From contig NC_090361.1 in the NCBI RefSeq assembly GCF_035084215.1, forward strand, positions 9,300,001 through 9,364,000: DNA of 64,000 bases. The letters run 5' to 3'. This document shows positions 23,299 through 60,499 of the stretch, in pieces. Made by a program: the position numbers and the translations under genes. Every line of letters starts with the position of its first letter. Positions within the stretch are counted from its first letter, which is position 1. This DNA comes from Heptranchias perlo (lineage: Eukaryota). The notes beneath the pieces are model-generated. The model worked only from the letters and a program-made list of their open reading frames with translations, was not told the origin of the DNA and made no database searches.

Positions 23299-23428
23299 CT
23301 GGTCCGTAGGATTTGGCCAGCAGCCACGAAAGGCTTCCTGCGATCTTCGCTCTGGAAAAATCGTACTGATCCAAAGGCTTAATCTCCGGGACAAGGAAGG
23401 TCTTCCTCATTTCATCCACATCTACCAT
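23299..23428 (-). CDS. CAMSAP3: Calmodulin-regulated spectrin-associated protein (CAMSAP/patronin family), first coding exon; most like CAMSAP3
   Basis: Translates to MVDVDEMRKTFLVPEIKPLDQYDFSRAKIAGSLSWLLAKSYGP, matching the CAMSAP2/3 N-terminus (human CAMSAP3 TFLVPEIKSLDQYDFSRAK). 130 nt ending at a phase-1 GT donor (CCA G|GTACAT). I found no downstream exon in 1-23298. Paralogue assignment is less certain than family. Confidence 0.85.
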
Positions 23429-36446: not shown

Positions 36447-37569
36447 CCTAGATTCTGATTGGATGAGGTCAGTGAGTAGATCCTGATGGGCTGATGTGTG
36501 ACTCAGATCTTTGTGAATCGATATTAATTTTGTGCTTGGCTACAGAAATTTGAAGTGAGCTACCAACTTTGTGTAATCAGTAGTGCATTGATTACTGGGA
36601 AATCTTAAATCAGTCAATTTATACGGTGGATTGTTTCTGAGCTAGAAAGAATTACAGGACCAGTCCTGTAAAGGAAACATCCCTACTCACTGCTGATGAG
36701 TAACACATTAGTTTTGTCTCCTTGTTGGGAAAGATGATTTGATGATAAATGATTGCATCAAATCTTCCAGCGCTTCTGTAAAACGCAGACCACATCCTCA
36801 CACAGCTTTAAATTAATCGCTCTTCATAGCTCCGTGGGTGTGGCATCAGCTGTAACTGTATGGGTACCTGTTCACTGTGTATACTTCAGATCCTGATGGG
36901 AGAGGGCTCAATGTCTGTAACCAGGCCCAACAATGAGATGGGTTTAGTGTCTGTAACCTGATCCCTATGGAATGGTGTCTAACCAGATCCTTATGGAATT
37001 GGGACCAGAATCTGTAACCTGATCTGTATAGGATGGGGCCTGGTGCTGCAACCAGACTCCTATGGGATGGGGGTCAATGTAGATAACCTGCACTGTTGGA
37101 TGAAGGTTAAGAGCAGTGGACAGGGAGAGTAAGGAACAAATGTAATTGAAACAGTTTTAAAAATAAAAATGACTAATAGATTCCTGTAACTCTGGTCATC
37201 GAGTGCTAGAATCGAACCCAATGGCCCCAGCCTTGACCAATCAGTGCAATTCTTGGACCTGTAACAGGCTCTAACACTATCTGTGTACCTGTACCAATTG
37301 TAGAATGATATTGACGATGCCTGTCATATCCCAAATTGCCCAAGTTAACTGATGGTGTTGTCCACCTATCGTGACTGTGTTGCTGGTTGTGAAGATATGT
37401 GTGGCCTCCATGGCTCCACCGTCATTGGTTTGAGAGGACGACGAAAAGCTCTTAGTTCAACAATTGTCCGAAGAAACGAGACACGTTCCAATAGGATAAA
37501 AAAAACATGCCCCGTTGTACAAGGGAACAAGGACAGTAAAATAACCGATTGCACCAACACAGACACTCC

Positions 37570-37620
37570 CTCTTCCTGTTAAGGAGTATTGCACATAGTC
37601 ACTGAGCAGAAGGGAAGTAA
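37570..37620 (+). promoter_or_regulatory. Putative TATA-less ETS-site promoter of the IgSF receptor gene
   Basis: 'cttcctgtt' (minus ACAGGAAG) at about 37572 and 'agggaagta' at about 37611, just upstream of the leader ATG. Confidence 0.3.
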
Positions 37621-37635
37621 TCAGCAAAGGCGAAC

Positions 37636-37699
37636 ATGGATTGTCCAGGCATCATCTTGCTGGTTTGGCACTTGTCTCTCACTGGCCTTTATTTTGCAG
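37636..37699 (+). CDS. IgSF receptor exon 1: signal peptide
   Basis: MDCPGIILLVWHLSLTGLYFA then G|GTACAAG donor (phase 1), in frame with the V exon. ATG context aacATGg. Confidence 0.75.
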
Positions 37700-39206
37700 G
37701 TACAAGAATCAGATTTTGACTTTCTTTTTACTCTTTGCCTTTCATTCATCAGTGAGTCAGTTGTCGGTGGAGTTTGGGGGATGAAAAGCATGTTGGTTGG
37801 GCAGGGCAAGCAGTTTCTGATTTCGTTCTTAAATAGATTGTGCCTAATGGCAGAGTGAGTCACCTGGTCCTTTAATTGTGCGTTAAGGAGTGGGATTCTC
37901 TGGCAATAAGTCTGAAGTGTGTTGGGTTTAACTGGTCGTCCAATTGCTTTGCGAGAGAGGGGAGATTGCATTCAGCCTCGCACATTTGATTGCATCTATT
38001 TTTATTGTTTCTTCTCATTTCATTTTTTTATACTCAAGCTTTTTAGGGATCTTTAGTATTTCTATACAGTGATATGATTTATGGGGAAAAAAGGACAGGA
38101 TGTGGTAATGCAGTGTGGGCTGCCTGAGATGAATTTCCTTCAGCTAAATTTTGGGGAAAGAAGGAATGTCTACTTCACCTCCAGCCTCAACCCCATCAAT
38201 ATCTCCCTTGCCACCCAGGAACCTTGTGCACTGCTCGGCTCGAAGCTCAGTTTGTTCTCTGCGCCTACCTCACCTCACCTGCTGTGGAAACCCTTACCCT
38301 AGTCTTTATTACCTCAAGGCTTAACTTCTCCAGTGCCCTCGTTGCTGGCCTCCACCCTTCACAAGCTCCGACTCGTCTGCAGTCCATGTCCTGACCCACA
38401 GTAAGGGTGGCACTCTCGTCGTCAGCAAGTTGACTTCATAATCCTTCTCCTTACCTTCAAACCTCTCCATGGCTTCATGCCGCCCCACCTCCAAGACCTC
38501 CTCCAGCTGTATGTCCCGAGATACACTCTGGTCCTCCAACCCTAGTCTACTCGTCATTCCCCTACCTCTCCGTACCACCCACGCGCAGCTACTCTTTCAG
38601 GCACAATTCTCCCCCCTCCACCAGCGTCTCTTCCTTGTTGCCTCCATGCTGGACTTCAAAAGCCTCAGGAAGGCCTCTTCTCTTCAATCATGTTTTTGCC
38701 CCCAACGCTGCCCTTTTCCCTTCTATTTGTTCACTGCCCTGTACAGCACTCTGAGGCAGCTCCCTGGACGGAACGAGTGCGGCTCGGGACGCAACTTGTG
38801 ATTGTTGTTGTGTGTGATTGGAGACTGTGCTGGCGAGGGTTTCCCGTGATCGATTCAGTCCACTTTTTAAAAGAAGTATAATTTCCTGCCTTGCTCTGCT
38901 CTCCTGAAGGTGTTGATAGATGGGCACTCGTATCTGTCCCTAACCTCACCAAAGTGACCATTCTTCATGTGTGAGCCCAGACAATGAGTGTGGGTAGGCT
39001 TTGGATTGTCGGGGCCAATGAGATGGCGCAACTGGGAAACTGCACATCTTGCTGCGATGCTGAGGTCACTGGTTATGATCACCTGACCGTTTAAGTCCAC
39101 ATCATCTCGGGTGGTTCTCTTAACCTTTCACAGGTAGTTGAAATTATTCCATTTTAGAAAAAAATACCCATTACATTCCCTTGTGTATTTTAACTTGTTT
39201 TTCCAG

Positions 39207-39575
39207 GTACAAGTAGCAACAATGAACAACATGTGAAGCAAATCTACGCTGTAAAGGGGAAGGATGTGACACTCACCTGCAAGTACAGAGACATTACCCC
39301 GAAGACAACCATGGAACTGAAAGTGAACCCAGATAACTCGAGCCTGTGGCCTGCTGAGGCACAGACAGTGATATGGCAACGTTACAAACAGCCCGAAAAC
39401 CAAATGAATAAACAGATCATTCTATTAACTGGTCGTTTCACATCAAAGGCTTCCTCGTCCAGTGCACAGCTCTACATCAAAGGATTACAAGTGACAGACG
39501 TTGGATTCTACTCCTGTCGCCCAGTTTTCACAGTTATTAAGGGCGAGTCTGATGTAACACAGCTGATTATCACAG
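39207..39575 (+). CDS. IgSF receptor exon 2: V-set Ig domain
   Basis: Acceptor ttttccag| and donor G|GTGGG. Motifs GKDVTLTC, VIWQR, GRF, AQLYIKGLQVTDVGFYSC, TQLIIT. Phase 1-1. Confidence 0.9.
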
Positions 39576-39679
39576 GTGGGTGCTGGTCTGGTGAAATCAG
39601 GTCCCCACAGGGTACGTGTGCAGACACATGTTTCCAATTGGCTGGGAGAGGGTTCTTGCAAAGTGGGAAATCCGACAAA

Positions 39680-41712
39680 GAAATAAAACAGCAGTGGGAA
39701 ATATTTAAAACGGTGATCAGTAGAGTCCAGGAGAAATATATCCCACTAGAACAAACTCGTCAGTAACGATACACCAGTAAAGAAATAAGGGCGAAATTGA
39801 AACTGAAGAGAAAGGCAACAAAGGAGAGGATGACAAAAGGGAATATGAAAAGGTTAGGAAAGAAGTAAAAAAGAAACAATTACGAAAGCAAAATGAAACC
39901 ATGAAATTAAATTATCAAGGAATATCAAAAAAAAAGTAAAGTATTCTACAGGCATATAAATAACAAAAGAAAAATTAGGATAGGAACAGGACCACTAAGG
40001 GATACACATGACAAACTCGCAATGATAGCGCAATGGCAGAAATATTAAATAATTGCATTGCTTCAGTATTTACCAGTGGGCAGAACATTAGAAGAGAGAT
40101 CAAAAAAGATGTAAAGGCATTTTAGATAGAAAGGGGGGAGATAATTGATAAACTAATTAAACTTAGAGAGGATAAAACCCCTGGTCCAGATGGATTGTAT
40201 CCATGCATATTACAAGAAGCTAGGGAAGAGATAGCAGAGGCACTATTACATATACATACAAATTCATTAGAAAAGGGAATAATTCCAGAGGACTGGCGGA
40301 CAGCGAAAGTGATTCCTATATTTAAAAAGGGAGATAGAACAAATCCAGGGAATTATAGACCAGTTAGCTTAACGTCAGTGGTAGGATAGACAATGGAATC
40401 CATACTCAAAGATGTAATAGAGAAACATCTAGAAACCAAAAATATAATAAAGAATAGTCAGCACGGATTTCAAAAGGGGAGGTCATGCTTTGACCAATCT
40501 TATTGAATTCTTTGAAGAAGTAACAGAAAGAGTAGACAAGGGCAATGTAATAGATGTAATATATTTGGATTTTCAAAAGGCCTTCGATAAGCATAAGTAG
40601 ACTCATGACTAAGGTCAGGGCACGTGGAGTCAGGGGACAAGTAGCAGAATGGATAGCAAGCTGGCTACAAAACAAAAAACAGAGTAGGGGTTAAGGGTAG
40701 TTACTCAAACTGGCAAAAGGCGGGAAGTGGTGTTCCACAAGGATCGGTGCTGGGACCACTATTGTTCAGATATACATATATACATATAAACTTTCTGGAC
40801 TCGGGAATTGGAAGTATAATTTCAAAATTTGTGGACGGCACCAAATTAGGGGGTATAGTTAATACTGAGGAGGACTGCGACAAAATACAATTAGACATTA
40901 ATAAACTTGCAGAATGGGCATGTAATTGGCAAATTAATTACTGTGAGGTGGTACATTTTGGTGGGAATAATGAGGTGGTCACATACTCCTTGGAAAATAA
41001 GAGTCTAAACAGGATAGAGGAACAGAGGGATTTAGGGGTACAGATACACAAATCACTAAAAGTAGTGGCGCAGGTTAATAAGATCATTAAAAAAAAAGCA
41101 AACCAAGCACTGGGGTCCATTTCTAGAGGGATAGTATTGGAAAGCAAAGAAGTTATGTTAAACTTGCATAGAACCTTGGTTAGACCACACTTGGAGTACT
41201 GCAAACAGTTCTGGTCTCCACACTATAAAGAGGATACTGAGGCACTGGAGAAGGTGAAAAAAACATTTACTAGGATGATTGCAGAAATGAGAAGTTGTAC
41301 CTATCAGGAAAGATTGAATAGGCTGGGGCTTTTTTCTCTAAAAAAGAGAAGACTGAGGGGTGACCTGATAGAGGTCTTTAAGATAATGATAGAGTTTGAT
41401 AGGGTAGATGGAGAGAAGCTGTTTCCACTTGCGGGGGAGACCAGAACTAGGGGCCATGAATATAAGATAGTCACTAACAAATCCAATATGGAATTCAGGA
41501 GAAACATCTTCACCCAGAGAGTGGTAAAAATGTGGAACTCGCTACCACAAGGAGTAGTTGAGACGACGAGCATAGATACATTTAAGGGCAAGCTAAATAA
41601 ACACATGAAGGAGAAGGGAATAGAAGGATACTCTGTAGGGGTAGATGAAGAAGGGTGGGAGGAAACTCACATGGAGCATAAACACCGGCATGGACCTGTT
41701 GGGCTGAATGGC
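39680..41712 (+). mobile_element. CR1 LINE ORF2 (about 2 kb, frameshifted) in intron 2
   Basis: ORFs 40195-40389 and 40747-41733: [50 protein letters not shown]. Confidence 0.9.
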
Positions 41713-42129
41713 TGTAAATTCTTTGTAGAGTGATTGGATATTGGTGATTGTTCTACAGTGATAGCTGGTGTCCATCGAACACTGGCTGAGACTGGCTCTT
41801 GGCCAACTGCTTATCACATTGGTAACATCTCAGGGCTCCTGCCAATGGCTCAGTGAGTAAATGGACCATATGATGCCATACTGGTGGAAACTCATGAGAT
41901 CCCAAGAAGGGCTGTTTGACGTTTTCTCCTGACGTTCACACGAGCTTTCCAGCAGGGCTTCACCAGAGGGCAATCAGGGGTGGGAATTTTGTCTGGTTTG
42001 CCCCTTCCTGACCCAGAGGGCTATGGCCAACTGCAGCACCCCCTGGCTGAGATGCGCCAACTCAGCACAGACCAGGGAAAAAACATGGCACCTTCTTGGT
42101 CTGCATGGCTCAGTAGCTTATTGGGTGGT

Positions 42130-42315
42130 TAATTGTATCCATGTGATCTATATCAATTAGTGTTAATTGTATTCAGGTGGTGCACATCAATTGTATCCAT
42201 TTATAAGAGAGTTGATCTAGGGTGCGGTGTGGGTGTAATGTGGAGTTCTGGGAATAAAGGCTTGGAAGCAACTGAAGACTCGGCTCTAGTATTTTATCCT
42301 TCGCCACCTGGCTGG
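42130..42315 (+). mobile_element. Partial solo LTR
   Basis: TATA-like 'tttataag' and 'aataaa'; homologous to 26047-26280. Confidence 0.5.
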
Positions 42316-42733
42316 TGATAGGGACCTCGGAATCTCTGGCTGGGAGGCGGAAACGGCCAATGACTCCTGCTTGCTATCCAGCAACCTCTCCTGAAATGTC
42401 GATGTGTGGACCTGGAGGTGAGGACACAATTGGCATGGCTTTGGATGAATATCCTGCAGCCTAGGCCTACGCATGGCTATCTGGGTTAGGTACCAAAGAG
42501 GCACAGCAACCATCGCCCCCCATGAGTCTGTGCCTTCAGCACGGGACGGGTTGAGAGAGGAGGATTGCTGAGGCAAAAGAATAAATATCTGTTTTCAACT
42601 TTTTTTTTAAAGTATGTACCTAAATAAATAATTACAAGTATGAACTGATAGCTGGGTTACTACACAAGTCCGAGTTCATTATTGCTCCTATTGTGGCAAA
42701 GTATTTTAATAATTTTCTCTCTTATTTTTTAAG

Positions 42734-43036
42734 CTTCACCAGCTTTTCAGGATACTTCCACCCTGCCCCAATTAGAGGTGAACAAAACCAGGACTCTGAG
42801 CTGCAAAATAGTCGGATTTTATCCAAAGCAGTTTAAGATGGAATGGTTGAAGGGCGGGAATCAGTTGCGTCAACAACATCTGCATGTCGCCACTAACCGG
42901 GACGGAACCTTCAGTGCCGAGTCCACAATTTTATTTGTACCACAGCTCAATGACCACAATAAAATGATTACTTGCAGGGTCACTCACCAATCTGTGAAGA
43001 CGCCTATCCAGTGGTCTCAAAAGCTCAACGTTTTAT
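42734..43036 (+). CDS. IgSF receptor exon 3: C1-set Ig domain
   Basis: Acceptor ttttttaag| and donor T|GTAAGT. C1 hallmarks LSCKIVGFYP, MEWLK, NRDGTFS, ITCRVTHQS. Phase 1-1. Confidence 0.9.
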
Positions 43037-43243
43037 GTAAGTACGGTACGGTCAGAACTTCCGGCAACAAAACACTTTTTCTTCCTCCTTCCCTGAAGGC
43101 GCTGAGTCCTTGCTGGGGGTAGGGCTGGACATGCAACAAGTATTTTCTAGCGACTTTTTAGACAGCGAGTTGTTACGATCTGGAATGCATTGCCCTGAAA
43201 GGGCGGCGGAAGCAGATTCAATAATAACTTTCGTGGAAACGTA

Positions 43244-44343
43244 GAAACATAGAAAATAGGAGCAAGAGTAGGCCATTCGGCCCTTCGGGCCTGCTCCGCC
43301 ATTCAAAATGATCATGGCTGATCGTCTAACTCAGTACCCTGTTCCCGCTTTTTCCCCATACCCCTTGATCCCTTTAGCATTAAGAAATATATCCATCTCC
43401 TTCTTGAATACATCTAATGACTTGGCCTCCACTGCCTTCTGTGGTAGAGAATTCCACAGGTTCACCACCCTCTGAGTGAAGAAATTTCTCCTCATCTCGG
43501 TTCTAAATGGCATTCCCCGTATCCTGAGACTGTGACCCCTGGTTCTGGACTCCGCAGCCATCGGGAACATCCTCCCTGCATCTAGTCTGTCTAGTCTGGT
43601 TAGAATTTTATATGTTTCAATGAGATCACCTCTCAGTCTTCTAAACTGAAGTGAATATAGGCCTAGTCGATCCAATCTCTCCTCATACGACAGTCCTGCC
43701 ATCCCAGGAATCAGTCTGGTAAACCTTCATTGCACTCCCTCCATGGCAAGGACATCCTTCCTCAGATAAGGAGACCAAAACTGCACACAATACTCCAGAT
43801 GTGGTCTCACCAAGGCCCTGTATAACTGCAGTAAGACATCCCTGCTCCTGTACTCAAAATCCTCTTGCAATGAAGGCCAACATACCATTCGCCTTCCTCA
43901 CTGCTTGCTGCACCTGAATGCTCACTTTCAGCGACTGGTGTACAAGGACACCCAGGTCTCGTTGCACCTCCCCTTTTCCCAATCTATCACCATTCAGATA
44001 ATAATCTGCCTTTCTGTTTTTACAACCAAACTGGATAACCTCACATTTATCCACGTTATACTGCATCTGCCATGTTCTTGCCCACTCACCCAACTTGTCT
44101 AAATCACATTGGAGCCTCTTTGCATCCTCCTCACAGCTCACATTCCACCCCAGCTTTGTGTCGTCTGCAAACTTGGAAATGTTACTTTTAGTTCCCTCAT
44201 CCAAATCATTGATATATATTGTGAATAGCTGGGGCCCAAGCACTGATCCCTGCGGTACCCCACTAGTCACTGCCTGCCACCTGGAAAAAGACCCGTTTAT
44301 TCCTACTCTCTGTTTCCTGTCTGTCAACCAATTCTCAATCCAT
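43244..44343 (-). mobile_element. Young CR1 LINE inserted into an older CR1 tail (about 43150-43240 and 44344-44490)
   Basis: ORFs 43854-44327 (GVPQGSVLGPQLF, SKFADDTK) and 43331-43702. The flanks join to form a plus-strand CR1 3' end. Confidence 0.9.
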
Positions 44344-44871
44344 GGGAATTGGATATATAATTGGAAAGGAAAACATTTGCAGGGCTATGGGAAGGAGCAG
44401 GGGAGTGGAACTAATTGGATAACTCTTTCAAAGAGTCGGCACAGGCACGATGGGCCAAATGGCCTCCTTCTGCGCTGTATGATTCTATGATCTTGCTCGA
44501 GCGACCATTCTTCACCTGTGAACCTTGTCAGTGGGCTATTCAACTGTGGGAGACATCACAGCCAAGCACAATCCTCTCCTCATGTCCACACAAATGCTGG
44601 AAAGTGATCAAGAATCCTGGTTGATTTTTCCCTTTCCCAGCTCAGGGGCACTTGAGGCCAATTCCAGCACCCTTACTACTGCCCAGGCTGTGATCAGCTA
44701 GCTCGGCACAGACCAGGGATCAGACAGACTGGGGCCTTCTGGTCTGCTTGGCTCAGTACCATGCTGGGCATTGATTCTGCCCACTAGGCTATTATTGTAT
44801 GTTACTTTTATCCACTGTTTCAGATATTATTTAAATGTTTGATATGATGCTCTCCGGTTCTTTTCTAACAG

Positions 44872-45150
44872 ATGGGCCTGTAGATCTTAGGGTGGAACCA
44901 GGGAACAATGTTGTGAAGATGAAAGGTGACCTGCTTGAGTTATCATGCAAGGCCAATAGCAACCCTCAAGCCCAAATGTCTTGGCTCCTAAATGGAAAGG
45001 TTTTGCTGACGGCTACAACTAATCATCTGATGATCAAGGTTGAGAACATCACATCCAGCAAGCAAGGGAACTACACCTGCTCCGCAGAGAACAAGCTGGG
45101 AAGGAGAGAGTCTGTGGTGATGGTCACTGTGATTGACAGACCGATATCCA
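44872..45150 (+). CDS. IgSF receptor exon 4: C2/I-set Ig domain
   Basis: Acceptor ttttctaacag|. (Y)GPVDLRVEP...LELSCKANSNPQAQMSW...QGNYTCSAENKLG...VTVIDRPIS. Donor A|GTTTGT is phase 1 and weaker than the others. Confidence 0.85.
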
Positions 45151-45199
45151 GTTTGTATCTCAGATTTGTACTGAAGACATCACAAGTTTTTTTTATACA

Positions 45200-45700
45200 G
45201 GATCATACAGCACAGGAGGAGGCCATTCGGCCCATCGTGCCTGTGCCGGCTCTCTGAAACAGCTACTAATTAATCCCACTTCCCCTTCTCTTACCCCATA
45301 GCCCTGCAAATGTTTCCTTTTTAACTATATATCCACTTCCCTCTTGAAAGTTACTATTGAATCTGCATTCCAGCTCGTAATAATTCACTGCATAAAAAAT
45401 TTCTCTTCATCTCCCCCCTGGCTTTTTTGCCAATTATCTTAACTTTGTGTCCTCTGGTTACCGACCCTCCTGCCGGTGGAAATCATTTCTTCCTATCTGC
45501 TCTATCAAAACCCCTCATAGCTTTAAACATCTCTATTAAATCTCCCCTTAACCTTCTCTGCTCTAAAGAGAACAATCCCAGTTCTCCAGTCTCTCCACAA
45601 AACTGATTTCCCTCATCACTGGTCCCATTCTGGTGAATCTCCTCTGTACCCTCTTCGAGGCCTTGACGCCTCCCTAAAGTGTGGTGTCCACAACAGAACA
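45200..45700 (-). mobile_element. CR1 LINE 3' fragment
   Basis: ORF 45483-45701 ([17 protein letters not shown]). Confidence 0.8.
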
Positions 45701-46136
45701 CAATTTTTTAAAATTTAGTTGTTTTGTTCTTTTTCTCTTTTCAATTTTCTCCTCCCTTCTTCCCAAAAATGCTGACTCACAGCTGGGTAGCAGTTCCATG
45801 CACCCTGGACACTCTCTAGTACCTCGGTCCTCACCCAAGGGTCGGCTATCACGGTGAGTGTTGGCGGGTAGTTCAACCATGAAGGGCCAACAATCCCGAA
45901 GGCAAACCCAAGACTGCTCTCGTCCAGCACGCACGTGTGCACACGTGCACTGAATGTTAACAGGGGATTTAACTGAGGTGTTCAAAATTATGAAGGGTTT
46001 TGAGAGAGTAGATATATACTTGAAAGGGAGAAATTTACAGGGCTATGGGAAAAGAGCAGGGGGAATGGGAACTGGATAGCTCTTTCAAAGAGCTGGCATA
46101 TGCATGATGGGCTGAACAGCCTCCTTCTGCGCTGTA

Positions 46137-47130
46137 TCGGTGACATCATCCGAAAACACGACATCAGGTTCCACACATATGCTGACGACACCCAGCTCTA
46201 CCTCACTGCTGCCTCTCCCAACCTCTCCACTGCTTCTCATTTATCACTCTGCTTGTCCGACATCCAGTACTGGATGAGCAGAAATTTTCTCCAACTAAAT
46301 ATTGGCAAGATCGAAGCCATTGTCTTCGGCCCCCACCACAAACTCAGTTTCCGAGCCACCAACTCCATCCTTCTCCCTGGCCACCATCTGAAGCTGAACC
46401 AGACTGTTCGAAACCTTGGAGTTCTATTTGACCCGGAGATAAGCTTCCGATCGCATATCTGCTCCATCACCAAGACCGTCCACTTCTACCTCTGTAACAT
46501 CTCCAGTCTCTGCACCTGCCTCAACTCATCTGCTGCTGAAACCCTCATCCATGCCTTTGTTACCTCTAGAATTGACTATTCCAATGCTTTGCTGGCCGGC
46601 TTCCCATCTTCCAGCCTCCTTAAACTTCAGCTCATGCAAAACTCTGATGCCCATATCCTAACTCGCACCAAGTCCTGTTCACCCATCACCCCTGTGCTCA
46701 CTGACCTACGTTGACTCCCGGTCCGGCAATGTCTCGATTTTTAAAATTCTTATCCTTGTTTTCAAATCCCCCCATGGCCTCACCCCTCCCTATCTCTGTA
46801 GCCTCCTCCAGCACTACAACCCTCCGAGATCTCTGCGCTCCTCCAATTCTTGCCTCTTGCGCATCCCCAATTTTAATCGCTCCACCATTGGCGGCCGTGC
46901 CTTCAGCTGCCTAGGCCCTGAGCTCTGGAATTCCCTCCCTAAACCTCTCCACCTCTCTCTCCTCCTTTAAGATGCTCCTTAAACCTACCTCTTTGATCAA
47001 GCTTTTGGTCACCTGTCCTAATATCTCATGTGGCTCGGTGTCAAATTTTGTTTGATGATCACTCCTGTGAAGAGCATTGGGACGTTTTACTATGTTAAAG
47101 GTGCTATATAAATGCAGGTTGTTGTCGTAG
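46137..47130 (+). mobile_element. L2 LINE 3' portion (about 1 kb) including RT motif
   Basis: ORF 46100-46714: FHTYADDTQLY, NFLQLNIGK, LIHAFVTSRIDYSNALL. L2 tail 'gctatataaatgcaggttgttg'. Confidence 0.9.
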
Positions 47131-47499
47131 TTGTATGATTCTATGATTTACCAGAAGGGATCACTGAATCTCTGGGCCCCGTCCCTCAGTGCGTCTCTGA
47201 GTTTCCTGCCCCTCAGATTCTGCTGATTTTACTTGCAGCATGATAGCGTACAATCCTGTTCGCTATCCATTGACTCCTGCTGGCAAGTCTGGATGGCAGC
47301 TGAAGATAGAATTGGGCTCAGCTGGGACCCCCTCTTCACCCCCACCCCCTGCCCCCACCATGGTTACATAGCCTGTCTACTCTTGCTGTCAAGACTCACA
47401 CTTGTGAAGTAACAGAGGCTACCTGGTACACAACGGTGCTTCCAGGAGAGATGGGGAGCAAGTTGGTTTAAAAAGTGAGTTGGTAATTCTGTGGAGTGC

Positions 47500-47753
47500 A
47501 ACTACATGGAATGTACAGCGCAGAAACAGCCACATTCAGCCCAACTGGTCTATGCTGGTGTTTATGCTCCACACGAGCCTCCTCCCATCCCTCCATCTAA
47601 CCCCATCAGCATGTCCTTCTATTCCTTTCACCCTCATGTACTTATCTAGCTTCCCCTTAAATGCATCTATGATATTCGCCTCAACTATTCCTTGCGGTAG
47701 AGATTTCCACATTCTAACCACTCTCTGGGTAAAGATGTTTCTCCTGAGTTCCC
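47500..47753 (-). mobile_element. CR1 3' fragment abutting the TM-exon acceptor
   Basis: ORF 47536-47721 (MWKSLPQGIVEANIIDAFKGKLDKYM). Confidence 0.75.
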
Positions 47754-47767
47754 CGTTTGTATTGCAG

Positions 47768-47856
47768 ATGTAATTGCCAGGTACACGTTGGTTATTGCGG
47801 TCAGCCTCAGTGTTGTGCTACTCCTGATCATCCTGATACCCGTCGCCACATGTGCT
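47768..47856 (+). CDS. IgSF receptor exon 5: transmembrane segment
   Basis: Acceptor attgcag|, (N)VIARYTLVIAVSLSVVLLLIILIPVATCA, donor |GTAAGT. Phase 1-0. Confidence 0.85.
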
Positions 47857-47962
47857 GTAAGTACCTTTTACCTTCTTTTGGAGTTCATCCTCCTCCCGCT
47901 CAGAGCCTGCTTACCAACCTGCTTCTCGAGTAACTGCATCTTATCAGGGAAGCCCTCGAGCG

Positions 47963-48150
47963 AAAAATAACATTATTGCAGGTGCTGGAAATCTGAAAAC
48001 GGAAACAGGACAGGCTGCAAATAGACAGCAAGGCCCGGCAGCATCTGCGGAGAGACCGAATTCAGATCCTAAGACACTTGCTCGGGTGTCCTTGATGCCT
48101 GAAACGTCTCCACAGATGCTGCCTGGCCTGTGGAGCATCTCCAGCCTTTT
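47963..48150. mobile_element. Degenerate palindromic copy of the 29890-29993 Penelope-type repeat
   Basis: 'gcagcatctgcggaga' ... 'tctccacagatgctgc' inverted arms; remnant 'cctgaaacgt'. Confidence 0.5.
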
Positions 48151-48214
48151 CCACTTCAGTTTACAATTAAGCGGTGGTGGGATAAATGTGTCAATCACGG
48201 TGTCTCCCTTTCAG

Positions 48215-48268
48215 ATCGTAAAGAGGTGCAGAGCGACAAGGTGGCAGGAGGAGGAACCGGTTTACATG
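48215..48268 (+). CDS. IgSF receptor exon 6: cytoplasmic (IVKRCRATRWQEEEPVYM)
   Basis: Acceptor ccctttcag|, donor |GTGAGT, phase 0-0. Basic stop-transfer residues. Confidence 0.8.
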
Positions 48269-48369
48269 GTGAGTGTGAATGTGAGCGTTGTGTGTACATG
48301 AGTGAGGGACAGCAGTAAGGCCCCTAGGATTTCCAGACATTGGATCCAGTCAATGACCTTTCTTTGATA

Positions 48370-48631
48370 TGATGTGGAGATGCCGGTGATGGACTGGGGT
48401 TGACAATTGTAAACAATTTTACAACACCAAGTTATAGTCCAGCAATTTTATTTTAAATTCACAAGCTTTCGGAGGCTACCTCCTTCCTCAGGTGAACGAT
48501 GTGGAAATGAAATCCTCGAAATGAAGTCGCATTTATAATTCACAGAACAATGCTTGGTGAGTACAGACAGTTTTTTCAACTGCCCGTTGCCAAGGCAATC
48601 AGTGTGCAGACAGACAGGTGTTACCTGCCAG
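48370..48631 (-). mobile_element. Penelope-like element 3' remnant with intact hammerhead motif (minus strand)
   Basis: 11-bp TSD tttctttgata (48359-48369 and 48632-48642). Minus strand ttcac-CTGAGGA-aggaggtagcctcc-GAAA-gctt-gtgaa. Confidence 0.75.
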
Positions 48632-48829
48632 TTTCTTTGATAGTCATTGTGCTACAAGCCTGGGACCATTGTTAGTGACGAGCCATTCCATGAGGAAGTG
48701 CACAAGAATGGGGTTTTATCCTCAGTTTTCTCCCATCCCTCCCTCCCAAACCCATTGACTCTTGCTGAGGTACATCACTGGTCACCCATGTGTTAGCCAT
48801 GAGAGTGAGTGTTGGCAGGTTGTTTGACT

Positions 48830-49232
48830 CTGGTCCGGCAATGCCTCGATTTTAAAATTCTCATCCTTGTTTTCAAATCCTTCCACCCTGTGACTTCCTC
48901 TAACCCTACAACCCTCCAAAATCTCTGCGCTCCCCCAATTCTGGCCTCTTGCACATCCCCGATTTTCCTTGCTCCACCATTGGCGGCCGTGCCTTCAGCT
49001 GCCTGGGCCCTAAGTTCTAGAATTCTCTCCTTAAACCTCTCTGCCTCTCTACCTCCCTCTCCTCCTTTAAGATGCTCCTTTAAAAGCTACCTCTTTGACC
49101 AAGCTTTTGGTCACCTGTCCCATTATCTCCTTATGTGGCTCGGTGTCAAATTTTGTTTGATAATCGCTCCTGTGAAGCCTTGGAACATTTTACTACGTTA
49201 AAGGTGCTATATAAATGCACATCGTTGTTGTT
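48830..49232 (+). mobile_element. L2 LINE 3' fragment
   Basis: Same as 46720-47125. Confidence 0.8.
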
Positions 49233-49975
49233 GTGGGGAATCACAGCCGAGTGTGATCTTGGAATGACTCGATGTCTACACAGACTCACCTTCCACAACG
49301 AGTCACTTGATTGTGATCAAGAGCTGATATTCCCTCCACCCCACTCTTCCCCCCTGCCCCCAACTTATCCTAGGAGTGCTGAGACATTTGGAGCCTCTCT
49401 CCTACCATCTGGACTGAGATCAGTCAACATGGCTCAGATTCGAACCTTCCTGGTCTCTACGTCTCTGGTGCAGTTACCCACGGAGCTGTTGGGGGAGCCA
49501 GGTCTGGCCCACTGTCCTGCATTCCCAGTAGCAGCAACTGTTTCCATTGCTGGGAGCAGGGATGACCTTCCACCCCTCTGTAACCCTGAGGTCACCGCTA
49601 GGGTGCAGTTAGAGCTCTACACTCAACACAGCTTTGATTTCTTCCTATTTTTGGATGAGGAAGTAAGTCTCTTGGGTTGCCTGTTGCTCACCGTGAGAGA
49701 GCCCTCTCCATTAAGCCCATTACCCACAGAGTTTAGGAACAGGAGTAGGCCATTCAGCCCCTCGAGCCTGTTCCTTCCTGTAGGCTAACAGGAAGTGGTG
49801 TGCAGCACGGAATGGACAGGATAAGTTGAGGGGGGAAGGAAACAACATGGGATTACACCTCAGTCTGTACCTGCCCAGCCAGTTCAGGAAAGCTGCAGAT
49901 GTGCCCACTCTGATGTATCTGTCAAGACCATGATTCAGAACGACTCCCTAGTGGTTATGCTTTTCTCCCTTTAAG

Positions 49976-50053
49976 GTGTCTTCACAGCCCACCGCTGATG
50001 TTTATGATACTCTGACCACAGCCGGTACTGAGGAACCCAGCGCCCAGCAAAAG
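49976..50053 (+). CDS. IgSF receptor exon 7: cytoplasmic (VSSQPTADVYDTLTTAGTEEPSAQQK)
   Basis: Acceptor ctccctttaag|, donor AAG|GTAACT, phase 0-0, YxxL motif. Confidence 0.75.
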
Positions 50054-50822
50054 GTAACTAGCTGCAGGCAGAAGCTGATGAGGCGGGTGAGGAGCCTGGG
50101 GGTGGGGGCAACTGTGCTGCTGGGTACCAGTGCACAGGTCCAGGTTACTCAGGTCTCTGAGCAGCAGAGGCTGGGAACAGTTCACTTGCTCAGCCTCACA
50201 GCAATGGGAGGGTGTATGCAGGTGGGTATGGGGGCCGTGTCTGGATGGTATTCATTGGATGGGTGGGGTGGGTATGACGTTTGGGGGCCGTGTCTAGATG
50301 GTATTCAGTGTTTGGGTGGGGTGGGTGTGATGTTTGGGGGCCGTGTCTGGATGGTGTTCAGTGGGGAGGGTGTATTGGGTATGGTATTTGGGGTGGGTGT
50401 CCAATTGGTGTTACTCATATACCGTGATGGAAACCTTCAGAAGTGCCACCCATCAGTTTCCATGGAAACTCGAGCTGTATTTCTCCAAAGGAATCGGACC
50501 CATTTCTGATTCCTTTCTTTACTTTTACTTACCACAAGCTCTGGGAAGCTTTTGTCCATTGTATTTTTTTGTGATCCTCTCAATTAGACATTAACTGAAT
50601 GTTAAGGAATTTTGTCCTGTTCACTGAGAAGTGGACTAAAATAGATCAAGGTTATTTTCCTGGGAATTTTAGCAGCCACTGGGGAAGTCCTTGATCCCCC
50701 CCACTCCGTGTGAACTGGGTTCCTGGGTTTGAGACTCTACTGAAGCCAATTGTAATACACTGCACCACCCAGCCCCCCGTCCGGTGGGTCTCACTAACCT
50801 CTGCTTTTCATTTCTTTTTAAG

Positions 50823-50852
50823 GCGACTGATAGCATTTATGCAAACATTTAA
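50823..50852 (+). CDS. IgSF receptor exon 8: C-terminal ITIM-type motif (ATDSIYANI*)
   Basis: Acceptor tttctttttaag|, in-frame TAA at 50850-50852. SxYxxI matches the ITIM consensus. A further donor G|GTAAGC lies at 50891. Confidence 0.7.
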   Translation, partial: ATDSIYANI

Positions 50853-50894
50853 AGATCCAGAGGCTGTAAATCGGCAACAGCCAAGAGCAAGGTA

Positions 50895-51566
50895 AGCCAA
50901 GGTGAAGTGGATAGCACTCTCGCCTCTGAGTCAGAAGGTCCATTCCAGAGACTTGAGAACAAAACCTAGGCTGACCCTCCAGTGCAGTACTGAGGGAGTG
51001 CTGCACTGTCGGAGATGTTGTCTTTCTGATGAGATGTTAAACTGAAGCCCCGTCTGCCCTATCAAGTGGATGTATAAGATCCCATGGCACTACTTTGAAG
51101 AAGAGCAGGGGAGTTCTTCCCGGTGTCCTGGCCAATATTTATCCCTCAACTAACACCATTAATGTGGAGATGCCGGTGATGGACTGGGGTTGACAATTGT
51201 AAACAATTTTACAACACCAAGTTATAGTCCAGCAATTTTATTTTAAATTCACAAGCTTTCGGAGGCTTCCTCCTTCCTCAGGTAAATGTTCCTGAGGAAG
51301 GAGGAAGCCTCCGAAAGCTTGTGAATTTAAAATAAAATTGCTGGACTATAACTTGGTGTTGTAAAATTGTTTACAATTAACACCATTAAAACAGATTACC
51401 TGATCATTATCACATTTCTGTTTATGGGATCTTGCTGTGCACAAATTAGCTGCCCCGGTTCACTGCATTATAACAGTGACTACACTTCAAAAAGTACTTC
51501 ATTGGCTGTAAAGCACTTTGGGTTGTCCTGAGGTCGTGAAAGGTAATATATAAATGCAAGTCTTTC
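50895..51566 (+). mobile_element. Deu-domain SINE interrupted by a Penelope-like insertion
   Basis: Head, core and tail are present, split at 51163-51377. Confidence 0.8.
51163..51377 (-). mobile_element. Penelope-like hairpin remnant with hammerhead cores on both strands
   Basis: 12-bp TSD taacaccattaa (51151-51162 and 51378-51389); long inverted arms. Confidence 0.75.
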
Positions 51567-51707
51567 TAACCCGTGCTGTACCTGCCCTGGGAGTGTTTGA
51601 TGGGACAGTGTAGAGGGAGCTTTACTTCGTACCTAACCTGTGCTGTACCTGCACTGGGAGTGTTAGATGGGGCAACGTAGAGGGACCTTTACTTGGTATC
51701 TAACCTG
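51566..51707 (-). repeat. 67-bp tandem repeat, about 2 copies (inverted relative to 52158-52477)
   Basis: Reverse complement of the unit in the 52158-52477 array. Confidence 0.75.
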
Positions 51708-52157
51708 TATTTATCCCAGAGGACTAATGTGAGTCATTAACAGTCATTGTGAGGGAGTCGAACACTGGAACAGTAGAATGGAAACAGATTAACATAGTGC
51801 CCAAAATCAAAGGGGTGACAAAGTAGATGCAGCCAACTAGAGACCCATTAGTCTTCCTTCACTACTGTGTAAAATAACGGAATTGGTTATCAGGAGAAAC
51901 CTTCAGGGTTATCTGTACAATAATCCAGTAAACAGTTTACAACATGGATTCAGAAGGGGAAGTTCCTGCCTGACAAACATCTGACTTTTTTGAGGAAGTG
52001 TCACTAATTTTCGTTACTGGCAGATTGCTAATTGCTTCCTCTGTCGAATTATTTCTGACCTTTTCGTGTTTATCAAGGTGAGGGATGTTAGCGCTGGGAA
52101 ATGGAACTATCGCCATTTTAGACTCCCAGTGTCAGCACCAAACAAATGCTCCTAGAT

Positions 52158-52477
52158 CAGGTACAGCACGGGTTAGATACAGAGTAAAGCTCCCTCTACA
52201 CTGTCCCATCAAACTCTCCCAGGGCAGGTACAGCACGGGTTAGATACAGAGTAAAGCTCCCTCTACACTGTCCCATCAAACACTCCCAGGGTAGGTACAG
52301 CACGGGTTGGATACAGAGTAAAGCTCCCTCTACACTGTCCCATCAAACACTCCCAGGGTAGGTACAGCACGGGTTAGATACAGAGTAAAGCTCCCTCTAC
52401 ACTGTCCCATCAAACACTCCCAGGGCAGGTACAGCACGGGTTAGATAGAGTAAAGCTCCCTCTACACTGTCCCATCA
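52158..52477 (+). repeat. 67-bp tandem repeat, about 4.7 copies
   Basis: 'ggtacagcacgggttagatacagagtaaagctccctctacactgtcccatcaaacactccca' starts recur at 52160, 52227, 52294, 52361 and 52428. Confidence 0.9.
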
Positions 52478-53264
52478 ATATGTATAAACCCCAACCTCGG
52501 AATGCCCATAATGTACCAGTTGACATGTTTCCATTTCTCATTCCAGTCCTCCTTTGGCCTCTCTGAATGACAATGTTGATTTTGTGTTAATTGGTGGAAC
52601 TTATTTCACATGGAACCCTCACACTCAGTGATATTGGAGGGAATGATATATTTTTGTTCAAAGTACCTTTCCTTTCTGTGTTACCAAGAATTTCTTCAAC
52701 TTTTTTTAAATTGAAAAACAACGTCAATCGTTTAGTTGCCATGGAGACCAGCCCATCCTGGCTGCCGGCAGTATTCACCGGTATGGGGGCGAGACCAGTG
52801 TGTTTTGGCTACAGATGGAATCGTGGTGGAGAGAGGTTATAACACTTGTTCGCGTTGATTTTTTTGGAATGCAAGTTATAAAACTGTTCTTAAATGGTGC
52901 GCTACAGAGACAGGTGATGAGGCAACATTCTGGGCTGTAGAATGAGAATTCCCCAGAGCCTGAGCTCCATATTAATCCCTCTGGGACGGAGAATGAGCAG
53001 TCGACTCAAACTGCCGTCATGTACCTCCCAGACACCCACCACCAGAGTGACAGAGGCAAAACCTTGCAACAAGTCCCTGCTGGTCCAGATAGATGAGAAG
53101 GAGGAAGGAACATAATGAGGGGAAAGATATGTAACCAGCTTCAGAGGGAAGCTGAATGTAAGGAGCCTACTCAATGATTTCTACAGGCTCCCATGATGGC
53201 TGAGTGGGTAGTGGCGCTGACCAGTGTAGGACTAGGTCCTGCAGATCAGTCCCAGGTTTCAGTT

Positions 53265-53655: not shown

Positions 53656-54994
53656 AAACCATTGAAGTCAATTGAACTGAATATTGGATGGGGCGTATAT
53701 CGGGCGGGAGATGCGATAACCCCTGATTTGCGTCCCCGCCCAAATCGAATGACACCACCCCATATGTGGAATATTGGGTCCGCACGGAAAGCATGGGAAA
53801 GAGTTCGGAGTTCAGCGAGAAGGAAATATCAGGTTTCAGATCATAAAAGTATGACAAATAGCTGAGGAAACCCAGCCCATTCCCAGAGACACAAAGATTA
53901 ACGGAGGCTGTAAAATTATTCAAATACAGAAGGAACCGAGTAGCTTGGACATGGGGAGTTTGTGTGGAACCAGGAATAACGAGTCAATGCTGGGCATTGG
54001 AGCTAAAAATGACTGAGAGATTCACATCACAGCTGATACTTGGGGACCTTCACCGAATGCAGGGAATGTGGACTCGGGTGAAAAGAAATGGGGTGGGATT
54101 TCTGATCAAGCAAGAAGGAGGCGCATGTGGGTTTGGGGCAGACAAGAGCTATGATGATCCAGGCAGATGCTGTGGGGCTGAGAGAGACGTCCGAGGCCCC
54201 TTCTCTTCTGTCCACATTCTTCCGTTTCTTGTTTCATTTTATTCTGTTGGACAGAAGCCAAGGGCTACGTTCGTTCCCTAAACTCTGCTCTATTTAATTT
54301 CTTTTACAGGTCGCCAAAGAAAGACCAGACCAAAGAAGGTTCGACATTCGTAACTTGTGATTCAACTGATTACTACAACTTCTCTGGCTCAGCTCACGCT
54401 CAGACCTGATGGTCTCCACCAGGGTTTAGCAGGTGGATGGTAGAAGGGGCCACGGTCATTTCTCCTGCCTTGTCATCAACATGGAGCTCGTATGAAAATC
54501 ACAGACATGCCTTGTTACTGCTCGTTCACACCCATTTGGTATAATTTGTTCACCGGCCGCAGCACGTCTGAGCAGTAAGATTCTGAGCTGTTGCTGGCCA
54601 GACAGAGTTTCGTCCCTCCTTCCAGGAGAGAAAAATAGGAAAATTACCAAAGGGAGCTTATCTTCATTTTTAAAAAAATCATCTATTTCCCTGATTAGTA
54701 ATTGTACAGTAAATCATTATTACATAAGCAATCACTCCATTTGTCAGTGATGTCGGAATTGATTAAATAAGCTTTTAATTTAAGTCTTTTGCTGTTTGTT
54801 CCCAAAGAGGATCCTGTCCTTTCGCTGTGGTCTTGCCTGTCATCCCAATGAGCTGACATTTTCAGACTAGGCCTCATTGGAGTGTCGATGGCTTTTCCTG
54901 CGATCCCAGGATTGATGCTCAGCCCTCCTGTCTCCTGAGCTCCTGCCAGTACGTTTCGGGGTTTCCTAATGTCTGCGACACCCCTTCCCCACGG

Positions 54995-58131: not shown

Positions 58132-58479
58132 TCATTCGCAGTACACAGCGAAGATACTGGCCGCGCAGAACACGGTGCTGTTCTCGTAGCCGTGAGAAGC
58201 AAAGGTGTCGGCATAAGAATCCCAGAGAGCGCGGCTGGTCAGCAGGACATCCTCGTTGCTCCTCTCTCCCACCGTCACGACGCACACCAGCTTGTACCTG
58301 GGAGGCAGGGCCCCCTTCGCAAACTCCTTAATTTCTTCGCTCATCTCCTTTGCGAGTCTACCGGCGAGGGCGGGGCTGTACGAGACGCTTTTCAGCTTGT
58401 CGGGCACGTATTCCTCCAGGAACTTCTGAACTGGGAAAGTGCAGAATTTCTCCGGGGGTTTCGAGGAAAATGGCAGCAC
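58132..58479 (-). CDS. Tctex-1 domain dynein light chain-like protein, last exon (TCTEX1D/DYNLT family)
   Basis: VQKFLEEYV..KL..VSY...AKEMSEEIKE...PPRYKLVCVVTVGE...SRALWD..D.FAS..YEN..VFC...FAVYCE* is the Tctex-1 domain signature. Acceptor tttccag|. Confidence 0.9.
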   Translation of the reverse strand: MLPFSSKPPEKFCTFPVQKFLEEYVPDKLKSVSYSPALAGRLAKEMSEEIKEFAKGALPPRYKLVCVVTVGERSNEDVLLTSRALWDSYADTFASHGYENSTVFCAASIFAVYCE

Positions 58480-58760: not shown

Positions 58761-59607
58761 CTTGAACCCACAACCTTGTGACTCAGAGGCGATAGTGCTT
58801 CATTGGGCCACAGCTGACACAGGGTGTAGGAATCAAAATGGATCACTGGTCGGGGGGCACTCCCTGAGCATTTGGGTCTGAGTTCATGGAGTTTACTCTG
58901 CATCTAACCAGTGTGATATATCTACGCTGGGACCACTTGATGTTGACACAGCAGGGAGAGAGGGGGCAAAGTGAAATTATTTGATTCCTCAGCACTACCA
59001 TCCTTCGCCTGGGTGAGCGACCAATAAAAAGCCAATGGAATCATAGACTCTTAAAGCACAGAAGGAGGCCATTCGACCCATCGTGCCTGTGCCGGCTTTT
59101 TGAAAGAGCTGTCCAATTCAGTCCCACACCCCAGCTTTTTCCCCATAACCCTGCAAATGAGTCCTCTTCAAGTACATGTCCAATTGACTTTTGAAAGTTC
59201 CTATGGAATCTGATTCCACCACCCTTTCAGGTTGTGCGTTCCTACAATAGGAACAGGATTTGGCCATTCAGCCCTTCTTACACCCCCGGGGCCTGACAAC
59301 TGTGAACACTGCACACCGGTGAGTTCCTTCAACAATGACATTGTTCAGAAGCATAGTTACATCGAGCGACAAAAATGACTTCACACCCATCGTCCTCAAC
59401 ATAGCGACTGGATTGCCTGGTGTCAGCTGTGGTGTTGTCAGGAGGCCCTATTAAAGGCTTGGTGCTTTTCCCAGAGAGGGAGAGATGGTCAGAGGAAGAG
59501 CTAGCAGCCTCCCGACAACGGTTAACGTTACAGCGTTGGTAGAGGAGAGGGAGAGGGCTACCCACCCTCCCATCGAGAGAGAGAGAGAGAGAGAGAGAAT
59601 TACAGAC

Positions 59608-59670
59608 CTGTTCATTTATGATCTTGGTGACAGCTGGTTTCTTTGCAGCTATCTTCAAAGCTGTTCTTTC
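59608..59670 (-). CDS. Tctex-1 domain gene, internal exon (ERTALKIAAKKPAVTKIINEQ)
   Basis: Long polypyrimidine acceptor ...tttgaag|, donor CAG|GTCTGT, phase 0-0, in frame with the last exon. Confidence 0.7.
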
Positions 59671-59768: not shown

Positions 59769-59882
59769 CTTCAAATTCTTTGTCAGTCTCCTGGCAACGA
59801 GAAGCCCTTTGAAGCTAAAGGTGGAAGGATGTGCTTCACTTAAAAGATTCCCCAGCGAGGCTCTCCCTCTCACTGCTCCAAG
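59769..59882 (-). CDS. Tctex-1 domain gene, internal exon (LGAVRGRASLGNLLSEAHPSTFSFKGLLVARRLTKNLK)
   Basis: Acceptor cttttacag|, donor AAG|GTGACT, 114 nt open, phase 0-0. Confidence 0.6.
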
Positions 59883-60074: not shown

Positions 60075-60400
60075 ATTATTAAAGGTTTTGATAGAGTGAA
60101 TAAGGAGAAACTGTTTCCATTGGCAGAAGGGTCGGTAACCAGGTGGCACAGATTTAAGGTCATTGGCAAAAGAACCAGAGGGGAGATTAGAATTTCTTTA
60201 ATGCAAATTGTTATGATCTGGAATGCACTGCCTGAAAGGGATTCAGGAACAACTTTCAAAAGGGAATTGGATAAATATTTGAAAAGGAAAATTTTGCAGG
60301 GCTATGGGGAAAGAGCGGGGGAGTGGGACGAATTGGATAGCTCTTTCACAGGCACGAGGGGCCAAATGGCCTCCTTCAGTGCTGTATGATTGTACGATTC
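60075..60400 (+). mobile_element. CR1 3' fragment
   Basis: ORF 60069-60389 (KGFDRVNKEKLFPL...WNALPER). Confidence 0.8.
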
Positions 60401-60499
60401 TAAGTATCTGCAGCACTCGGATGGTGCAAGCAACAATTTGAGGGAACTTCATCCTGATACAAAAGCAAAGAGAATAACTTGTAAACGAGCAGCCACACC

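What the first reader, a model, noticed from the sequence alone, without database searches (positions are those of the whole stretch)
37636..50852. Intact, unnamed V-C1-C2 inhibitory-type Ig-superfamily receptor
Seen: eight exons (37636-37699, 39207-39575, 42734-43036, 44872-45150, 47768-47856, 48215-48268, 49976-50053, 50823-50852) have GT-AG sites and consistent phases. They join into a 1266-nt ORF (421 aa): leader, V, C1, C2/I, uncharged TM and a tail ending in SIYANI. Established: C1-set domains with GFYP/NxDGTF/CxVxH motifs are mostly restricted to Ig/TCR, MHC, tapasin, SIRP and some B7-family proteins, and SIRPs are V-C1-C1. Inference: V-C1-C2-TM-ITIM with an LNVLYGP domain junction (Siglec/CEACAM-like) fits no family I recognise exactly. 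It may be an undescribed cartilaginous-fish inhibitory immune receptor lineage.
Basis: partly seen in the sequence, partly recalled or inferred. Interest (0 to 1): 0.75.

Follow-up and report, generated by a model that had tools for sequence, protein, structure and literature searches.

The report
Shark mosaic immune-type surface receptor
This is a real shark gene for a three-domain cell-surface receptor that databases mislabel as a Siglec or CADM; its conserved tail looks more like a worn-down activating motif than an inhibitory one.

Summary
The gene is real. The eight exons join into a 421-aa protein identical to RefSeq XP_067829186.1 (Heptranchias perlo, auto-named 'Siglec-14'). Contigs of probable RNA join exons 2-3-4-5 as stated. 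One orthologue each turns up in five other sharks (43-50% identity), under conflicting names; none turned up outside sharks.

V-C1-C2 is not a new order: RAGE, nectins and MAG/CD22 D1-3 have it. The ITIM is not conserved: SIYANI occurs only here, ends at a stop absent from relatives, and only 2 of 6 tails hold an ITIM.

What 6 of 6 keep is D/E/NxxY-x10-YxxL, plus YxN. Here a phase-0 intron splits the first tyrosine module, as in ITAMs, but the first Leu is missing. The V-C1 half is closest to B7-H6-like V-C1 proteins of coelacanth, lungfish and frogs; the C2 resembles CEACAM/Siglec domains.

Best reading (0.45): an undescribed, shark-conserved mosaic receptor that signals by itself through an ITAM-derived tail, probably activating or endocytic. 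An inhibitory role stays possible (0.25). No function was tested.

The parts
37636..37699 (+). Exon 1 coding part, signal peptide (aa 1-21), phase 1
   Evidence: bin depth in run X1 fits about 92 nt of contig 1 lying here
39207..39575 (+). Exon 2, V-set domain: Cys46-Cys125, long 31-32-residue B-Cys-to-Trp stretch, short C-F stretch, no GxG J-motif
   Evidence: Pfam V-set; spliced in contigs
42734..43036 (+). Exon 3, C1-set domain of B7-H6/SIRP/B7 type
   Evidence: Pfam C1-set 2.7e-13; nearest non-orthologues; spliced in contigs
44872..45150 (+). Exon 4, C2/I-set domain, CEACAM-B/Siglec-like; weak but used donor
47768..47856 (+). Exon 5, uncharged transmembrane helix, phase 1 to 0
   Evidence: junction 4-5 in run X4
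48215..48268 (+). Exon 6, first tail exon, ends just after Tyr385-Met386 (phase-0 intron splits the first tyrosine module)
   Evidence: identical in the RefSeq model
49976..50053 (+). Exon 7, second tail exon with the invariant DVY(D/E)TL motif (Tyr396)
50823..50891 (+). Exon 8, IYxN motif (Tyr418), stop at 50850-50852, strong donor after 50891
   Evidence: no read-through piece among the longest contig pieces (inference)
54310..54780 (+). Probable exon 9, non-coding in this species (end approximate; ATTAAA at 54762)
   Evidence: Inferred: best acceptor downstream (score 8.9) and contig length arithmetic; outside the stretch laid, so not shown
23300..23428 (-). Neighbour: first coding exon of a CAMSAP gene, head-to-head with the receptor
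   Evidence: Pfam CH_CAMSAP2_N 1.2e-8
58132..58479 (-). Neighbour: last exon of a Tctex-1-domain dynein light chain gene, tail-to-tail
   Evidence: Pfam Tctex-1 1.6e-20

Best explanation
A shark-conserved, apparently single-locus type I receptor built as a mosaic: a B7-H6-like V-C1 module, one extra CEACAM/Siglec-type C2/I domain, a neutral TM, and a three-tyrosine tail derived from an ITAM-type exon pair. Shown: exon structure, domains, conservation, motifs. Inferred: the V domain, with its long and fast-changing B-C loop, binds a cell-surface ligand. Clustering lets a Src-family kinase phosphorylate Tyr385 (acidic residues upstream), Tyr396 and Tyr418. pTyr396-D/E-T-L acts as a half-ITAM or endocytic YxxL site, and pTyr418-x-N binds a GRB2-type adaptor. 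The output would be co-stimulatory or endocytic, as for ITAM-like CEACAMs, and needs no DAP12/FcR-gamma partner. The ITIM of this species is incidental.
For: Tail: D/E/N at -3, exactly 7 spacer residues and a second YxxL in 6 of 6 sharks; this pattern arises in 0.08% of shuffled tails. The phase-0 intron after Tyr385+1 splits the first module; random placement of the two tail introns does so 12% of the time, 4% at that exact spot. [quoted passage not shown] PMC2110893, PMC2832619 and PMC5112662 (passages) say the same of ITAM/ITAM-like CEACAMs, the last adding conserved YxN GRB2 motifs. YxN is present in 6 of 6. The tail is the best-conserved part (60% mean identity; V 48%, B-C loop 32%). Ectodomain: the best non-orthologous C1 and V-C1 matches among stored proteins are V-C1 proteins of coelacanth, lungfish and frogs; the coelacanth one's best non-antibody solved relatives are CD276, SIRPa and B7-H6. 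V profile against that group 91.5%, against CD22-like 0.4%, CEACAM N 11.7%. 5 of 6 shark C1 domains lack the B-strand Cys, as do several of those proteins.
Against: 0 of 6 tails are strict ITAMs: the first Tyr+3 is S, C or P, so tandem Syk/ZAP70 binding is doubtful. The motif pattern was chosen after seeing the data. The intron position was seen only in this species. Generic I-set control groups reached 6-93% against the V profile (B7-H6-like subsets 80-96%; 12 draws each), no nectin, CADM or SIRP V group was available, and one of three CEACAM slices was not an N domain. The comparison proteins are unnamed in their records; 'B7-H6-like' is my label. Structure searches do not separate families (V model: B7-H6, nectin-1 and SIRPa tie at Z 8.4), the ESM Atlas ranks nectin/CADM/MAG clusters first, and domain trees leave the deep joins open. 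Tissue of expression is unknown.
Confidence: 0.45

Rival explanations
1. Inhibitory receptor: pTyr396 and pTyr418 together bind the tandem SH2 domains of SHP-1, SHP-2 or SHP-2L, as a loose ITIM/ITSM pair.
For: SIYANI fits (S/I/V/L)xYxx(I/V/L), and the sawshark repeat holds VVYDTL. Neutral TM in 6 of 6. The 22-residue spacing is near PD-1's Y223-Y248, and shark PD-1 motifs deviate from consensus (PMC12151841 passages).
Against: ITIM in only 2 of 6 tails; Tyr+3 of the last motif is Thr in 3 of 6; -2 of the invariant motif is Asp; no ITSM in any. An ITIM arises in 5.8% of shuffled tails. The frame runs on past the stop and matches the Heterodontus tail.
Confidence: 0.25
2. Mainly a B7-family ligand (for a shark NKp30- or CD28-family receptor) lengthened by one C2 domain, the tail serving reverse signalling or trafficking.
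For: V-C1 module closest to B7-H6/B7-H3-type proteins. B7 genes lie in MHC paralogons and 19p13 is one (PMC11599192 passages); the neighbour is a CAMSAP gene, which would fit 19p13 if it is CAMSAP3 (paralogue not determined).
Against: B7-H6 has two domains (PMC6514059 passage). V identity to those proteins is low and the B-C loop is about 14 residues longer. The tail is the best-conserved part.
Confidence: 0.13
3. A diverged nectin/CADM/CD96-type adhesion receptor.
For: Same three-domain order and size; Atlas feature and structure neighbours are nectin-3 and CADM1/3 clusters (TM about 0.5-0.6); 4 of 6 RefSeq/UniRef names are CADM-like.
Against: The C1 scores far better to C1-set than to C2-set_2. 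C-termini vary freely among sharks with no conserved PDZ-type end (PDZ end recalled). No nectin or CADM record was among the hits.
Confidence: 0.12
4. A Siglec, as the RefSeq name says.
For: MAG and CD22 D1-3 are the top fold matches and match domains 2-3 by sequence; an Arg follows the F-strand Cys in this species.
Against: That Arg is A, V, D, D, V in the other five. The V domain has the ordinary B-F Cys pair and no extra Cys for Siglec-type bonds in this species. V profile against CD22-like V 0.4%.
Confidence: 0.04

Closest known systems
B7-H6 (NCR3LG1) and the B7-H6-like V-C1 proteins of coelacanth, lungfish and frogs
   Same: V without J motif followed by an antigen-receptor-type C1; best non-orthologous V-C1 matches; shared loss of the C1 B-strand Cys in several members.
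   Different: Extra C2/I domain, much longer B-C loop, own three-tyrosine tail; about 27% identity.
ITAM/ITAM-like CEACAMs (CEACAM3, CEACAM4, Xenopus ITAM-like Ceacams)
   Same: CEA B-like C2 with an identical domain-junction heptapeptide; tyrosine module split by a phase-0 intron; YxN motif; neutral TM.
   Different: C1 as second domain; V keeps its disulfide in 5 of 6; first YxxL lost; neighbours seen are CAMSAP and Tctex, not LIPE/BCL3; no paired paralogue found.
Nectins, CADM/Necl, RAGE (V-C1-C2 ectodomains)
   Same: Three-domain order, size and overall fold.
   Different: Second domain is a stronger C1-set; tail unrelated; no conserved C-terminal end.
Siglecs (MAG, CD22)
   Same: D1-3 order and sequence match over domains 2-3.
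   Different: Arg not conserved, ordinary V disulfide, ITIM not conserved.
SIRP alpha/gamma
   Same: C1 domain matches SIRP D3 (2.8e-15); three Ig domains; tyrosine tail.
   Different: Third domain is C2/I, no VJ-type G strand, no ITIM pairs.

Membership tests
Siglec | Conserved Arg on the V-domain F strand (position recalled) | tested here: not met
   Arg in 1 of 6 orthologues
Siglec | B-E intra-sheet and D1-D2 inter-domain disulfides (recalled) | tested here: not met
   Only the B-F pair in each ectodomain domain of this species
Siglec | Sialic acid binding | not testable with these tools
   Needs a glycan array
SIRP | V-C1-C1 ectodomain | tested here: not met
   Domain 3 is Ig_2/I-set with no C1-set hit at E 0.1
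SIRP | VJ-type V with GxG in the G strand (PMC11599192) | tested here: not met
   No GxG in 6 of 6
B7 / B7-H6 | V followed by C1-type domain, related by sequence | tested here: met
   moderate, controls overlap
B7 / B7-H6 | Two-domain ectodomain (PMC6514059) | tested here: not met
   Third C2/I domain
B7 / B7-H6 | Binds NKp30 or a CD28-family receptor | not testable with these tools
   No assay; no complex job sent
CEACAM | Disulfide-free N domain followed by A/B C2 domains (recalled) | tested here: not met
   5 of 6 keep both V Cys; domain 2 is C1-set; V profile against CEACAM N 11.7%
CEACAM | Synteny with LIPE/BCL3 (PMC5112662, PMC2832619) | tested here: inconclusive
   Only two neighbours seen, CAMSAP and Tctex; no genome held
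Nectin/CADM | V-C1-C2/I ectodomain | tested here: met
Nectin/CADM | Conserved C-terminal PDZ-binding end (recalled) | tested here: not met
   Six different C-termini
Nectin/CADM | Orthology by phylogeny and synteny | not tested
RAGE (AGER) | V-C1-C2 order; sequence orthology | tested here: inconclusive
   Order met, fold ranks 25-40; not among the 60 rows shown or 36
ITAM | D/E/N at -3, 7-residue spacer, second YxxL/I | tested here: met
   6 of 6
ITAM | First module YxxL/I | tested here: not met
   0 of 6
ITAM | Exon border splits the first tyrosine module (PMC4536121) | tested here: met
   This species only; other genes not available
ITIM receptor | Conserved (S/I/V/L)xYxx(I/V/L) in the tail | tested here: not met
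   2 of 6 tails, at different places

The most novel reading that the evidence does not exclude
A relic of the primordial immune complex: a non-rearranging V-C1 receptor of B7-H6 type in the MHC paralogon matching human 19p13, carrying its own ITAM-type exon pair. It would join an antigen-receptor-type C1 ectodomain and the ITAM module in one chain, and would have been lost or changed beyond recognition in bony vertebrates.
Probability: 0.15. Interest if true: 0.75.

Novelty: new variant of a known kind. Interest (0 to 1): 0.45.

Why it matters
True C1-set domains outside Ig, TCR and MHC are few and are used to trace how adaptive immunity arose (PMC10751288 passages). A gene kept across deep shark lineages that joins a B7-H6-type V-C1 to an ITAM-like tail adds a member to that short list and gives a testable shark co-receptor. 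It also corrects six contradictory automated names. It is not a new architecture class, and the inhibitory label should not be passed on.

Tried and rejected
Whole-genome synteny: no genome held. Pfam on 141 unmasked ORFs of 62 aa or more (141 of the 158 listed) found nothing; 37 of 82 exon-like candidates gave one clear hit, CAMSAP. The 1.84-billion-protein search was swamped by multi-Ig proteins: 3 of the 150 rows shown were family members, cut-off 133 bits, so weak full-length relatives could lie below it. No RNA holder is on record as RNA. Joints were dominated by repeats, so tail junctions were not displayed. AlphaFold models were weak (pLDDT 56.5 full, 63.5 V) and fold searches did not name a family. 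Weak VNAR hits to the V profile (E about 1e-4) probably reflect the short C-F stretch; not taken as kinship. Domain trees left deep joins open, with long branches meeting in the C2 tree. Read-through at exon 8 would end at 51330, beside an AATAAA, so length alone does not prove exon 9. Earlier scan notes: nothing by place, words or sequence. Papers: nine searches found none on this gene; six accession numbers gave 0 papers. The 2012 B7-family paper that covers shark B7H6 is not held. No complex prediction was sent, since no partner is claimed.
Full report
Observation. All seven introns are GT-AG, with phases 1,1,1,1,0,0,0, and the join gives 421 aa. A search with the C1 exon returned a 100% match. 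[quoted passage not shown] So the gene is predicted and named in RefSeq, by automated likeness. Pfam gives V-set, C1-set (2.7e-13, against 1.8e-6 for C2-set_2) and Ig_2/I-set for exons 2-4.

Splicing. Four coded runs of one sample held 12-19% of the words of a stretch that is about 18% exon (RNA is the tool's guess). Laid on 36500-51150, one 1775-nt contig (X1) and one 1319-nt contig (X2) carry exons 2, 3 and 4 end to end with no differences, and an X4 contig joins 45150 to 47768. This shows that the weak donor after exon 4 is used. The tail junctions were not among the rows shown. These runs may be the data behind the RefSeq model, so they are not independent of it.

The 3' end. A strong donor follows 50891, 39 nt after the stop. 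The frame past the stop resembles the Heterodontus tail up to that donor, and all five relatives run on past the YxN+1 position. No read-through piece appears among the longest contig pieces. The best downstream acceptor is at 54310, and the X1 contig would then end at 54748, just before ATTAAA at 54762. Read-through would end at 51330, also beside a poly(A) signal, so exon 9 is probable, not shown. A stop within 50 nt of the last junction should escape decay (recalled rule). The C-terminal SIYANI is therefore most likely a lineage-specific truncation.

Orthologues. One search gave 9 hits among 5848 candidates, 7 of them this family from six sharks: Heptranchias, Heterodontus, Pristiophorus, Carcharodon, Cetorhinus and Scyliorhinus, at 43-50% identity over the full length. 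Each species gave isoforms that fit one locus, named Siglec-14, Siglec-8, Siglec-12, CADM1-like or CADM3-like. The C1 tree follows the expected shark branching. A profile search (12 hits among the 7999 candidates scored) and a full HMMER scan (150 rows shown of 6711) added no species. The collection does hold Mobula and Chiloscyllium proteins, so absence from rays, carpet sharks, chimaeras and bony fish is suggested, but these searches are word-limited or cut off and do not prove it.

Ectodomain. The order V-C1-C2 is known: the top fold matches are MAG and CD22 D1-3, nectin-1, Necl-4, RAGE 'VC1C2' and SIRP, and the Atlas gives nectin, CADM and MAG clusters. What is less usual is a C1 of the antigen-receptor type (Ig, SIRP and beta-2-microglobulin lead). 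For the coelacanth protein, the best non-antibody solved relatives are CD276, SIRPa and B7-H6, and it aligns in order over both V and C1 (27%). The V profile matches that group at 91.5%, against 0.4% for CD22-like and 11.7% for CEACAM N (small groups, one bad slice). Subsets gave 80-96% over 78-90 columns, while generic I-set groups gave 6-93% over 22-74 columns. This is moderate support. Five of six shark C1 domains lack the B-strand Cys, as do several of those proteins. The V has a 31-32-residue B-Cys-to-Trp stretch whose loop is the least conserved part (32%), a short C-F stretch and no GxG. Its model is a V-type sandwich with a low-confidence loop, and does not pick a family. The C2 is closest to CEA among solved structures, with an identical junction heptapeptide.

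Tail. It is the best-conserved part (60%). The ITIM is not: 2 of 6 tails have one, at different places, none has an ITSM, and chance gives one in 5.8% of shuffles. All six keep D/E/NxxY, then exactly ten residues, then YxxL, and later YxN. Here a phase-0 intron falls after the first Tyr+1. PMC4536121 states that classical ITAMs (D/E/NxxYxxL/I-x7-YxxL/I) are always split this way. Three CEACAM papers say the same for ITAM and ITAM-like tails, and one notes conserved YxN GRB2 sites in them. Against this, the first module lacks Leu/Ile in all six, the pattern was picked after the fact (shuffle rate 0.08%; intron placement 4-12%), and I saw the intron in one species. I read the tail as an ITAM-derived half-motif plus an adaptor site.

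Mechanism. Shown: a spliced, conserved type I protein with a neutral TM and three conserved tyrosines. Inferred, from general knowledge of such motifs: ligand binding by the V domain, Src-family phosphorylation, Syk or AP-2 at pTyr396, GRB2-type adaptor at pTyr418, and an activating or endocytic output (0.45). Rivals are SHP-based inhibition (0.25), B7-type ligand (0.13), nectin/CADM-type adhesion (0.12) and Siglec (0.04).

Surroundings. A CAMSAP first coding exon lies head-to-head 14 kb upstream, and a Tctex-1-domain gene lies tail-to-tail. No second Ig gene was found in the window. [quoted passage not shown] This leg of the novel case is weak.

Literature seen. Passages only (find mode) of PMC12227049, PMC5112662, PMC2832619, PMC4079198, PMC13278318, PMC13262535, PMC12151841, PMC2110893, PMC4536121, PMC11599192, PMC4015844, PMC10751288 and PMC6514059; all others as search listings. 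No supplements were read. Nine searches found no paper on this gene, but subscription papers on shark B7H6 and the primordial immune complex, and their supplements, were not available and could list it.

Verdict. Real, shark-conserved, misnamed and apparently undescribed; a new variant of known Ig-superfamily receptors rather than a new class. The inhibitory label is not supported. Interest 0.45.

Noticed in passing
window 23300-23428 (-): First coding exon of a CAMSAP gene (Pfam CH_CAMSAP2_N 1.2e-8); further exons not located, paralogue not determined.
   Followed up: partly
window 58132-58479 (-), candidate exons 59566-59670 and 59769-59882 (-): Tctex-1-domain dynein light chain gene, probably multi-exon.
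   Followed up: partly
window 45151-45156: Very weak donor (GTTTGT, score -3.6) that is nonetheless used in an X4 contig.
   Followed up: yes
P0008 / P0012 (Pristiophorus japonicus): Both V-domain cysteines are Ser, the exon-7-like tail unit is duplicated, and one isoform lacks the whole C1 domain.
   Followed up: no
P0009, P0010, P0011: The three species with an extra Cys in a V-domain insertion also have an extra Cys in the C1 D-E region; a lineage-specific disulfide is possible.
   Followed up: no
P0016, P0017, P0004: Alternative isoform models with other N-termini that show no obvious signal peptide; one X2 contig has 27 unlaid letters upstream of exon 2.
   Followed up: no
P0013 (Chiloscyllium punctatum GCC32115.1): A V plus three C1 domains plus TM protein, unnamed; not an orthologue of this gene.
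   Followed up: no
P0166 (Protopterus annectens LOC122813971): V-C1-C1-TM-V-C1-TM layout with two apparent TM segments.
   Followed up: no
window 51162-51378, 51566-51708, 52158-52478, 60390-61309, 16048-17079, 40657-41733: A short inverted-repeat element with a 98% copy at 48372-48496, 67-nt tandem arrays, a long low-complexity tandem array, and LINE-like reverse transcriptase remnants (label by eye); about 35% of the window is self-repeated.
   Followed up: no
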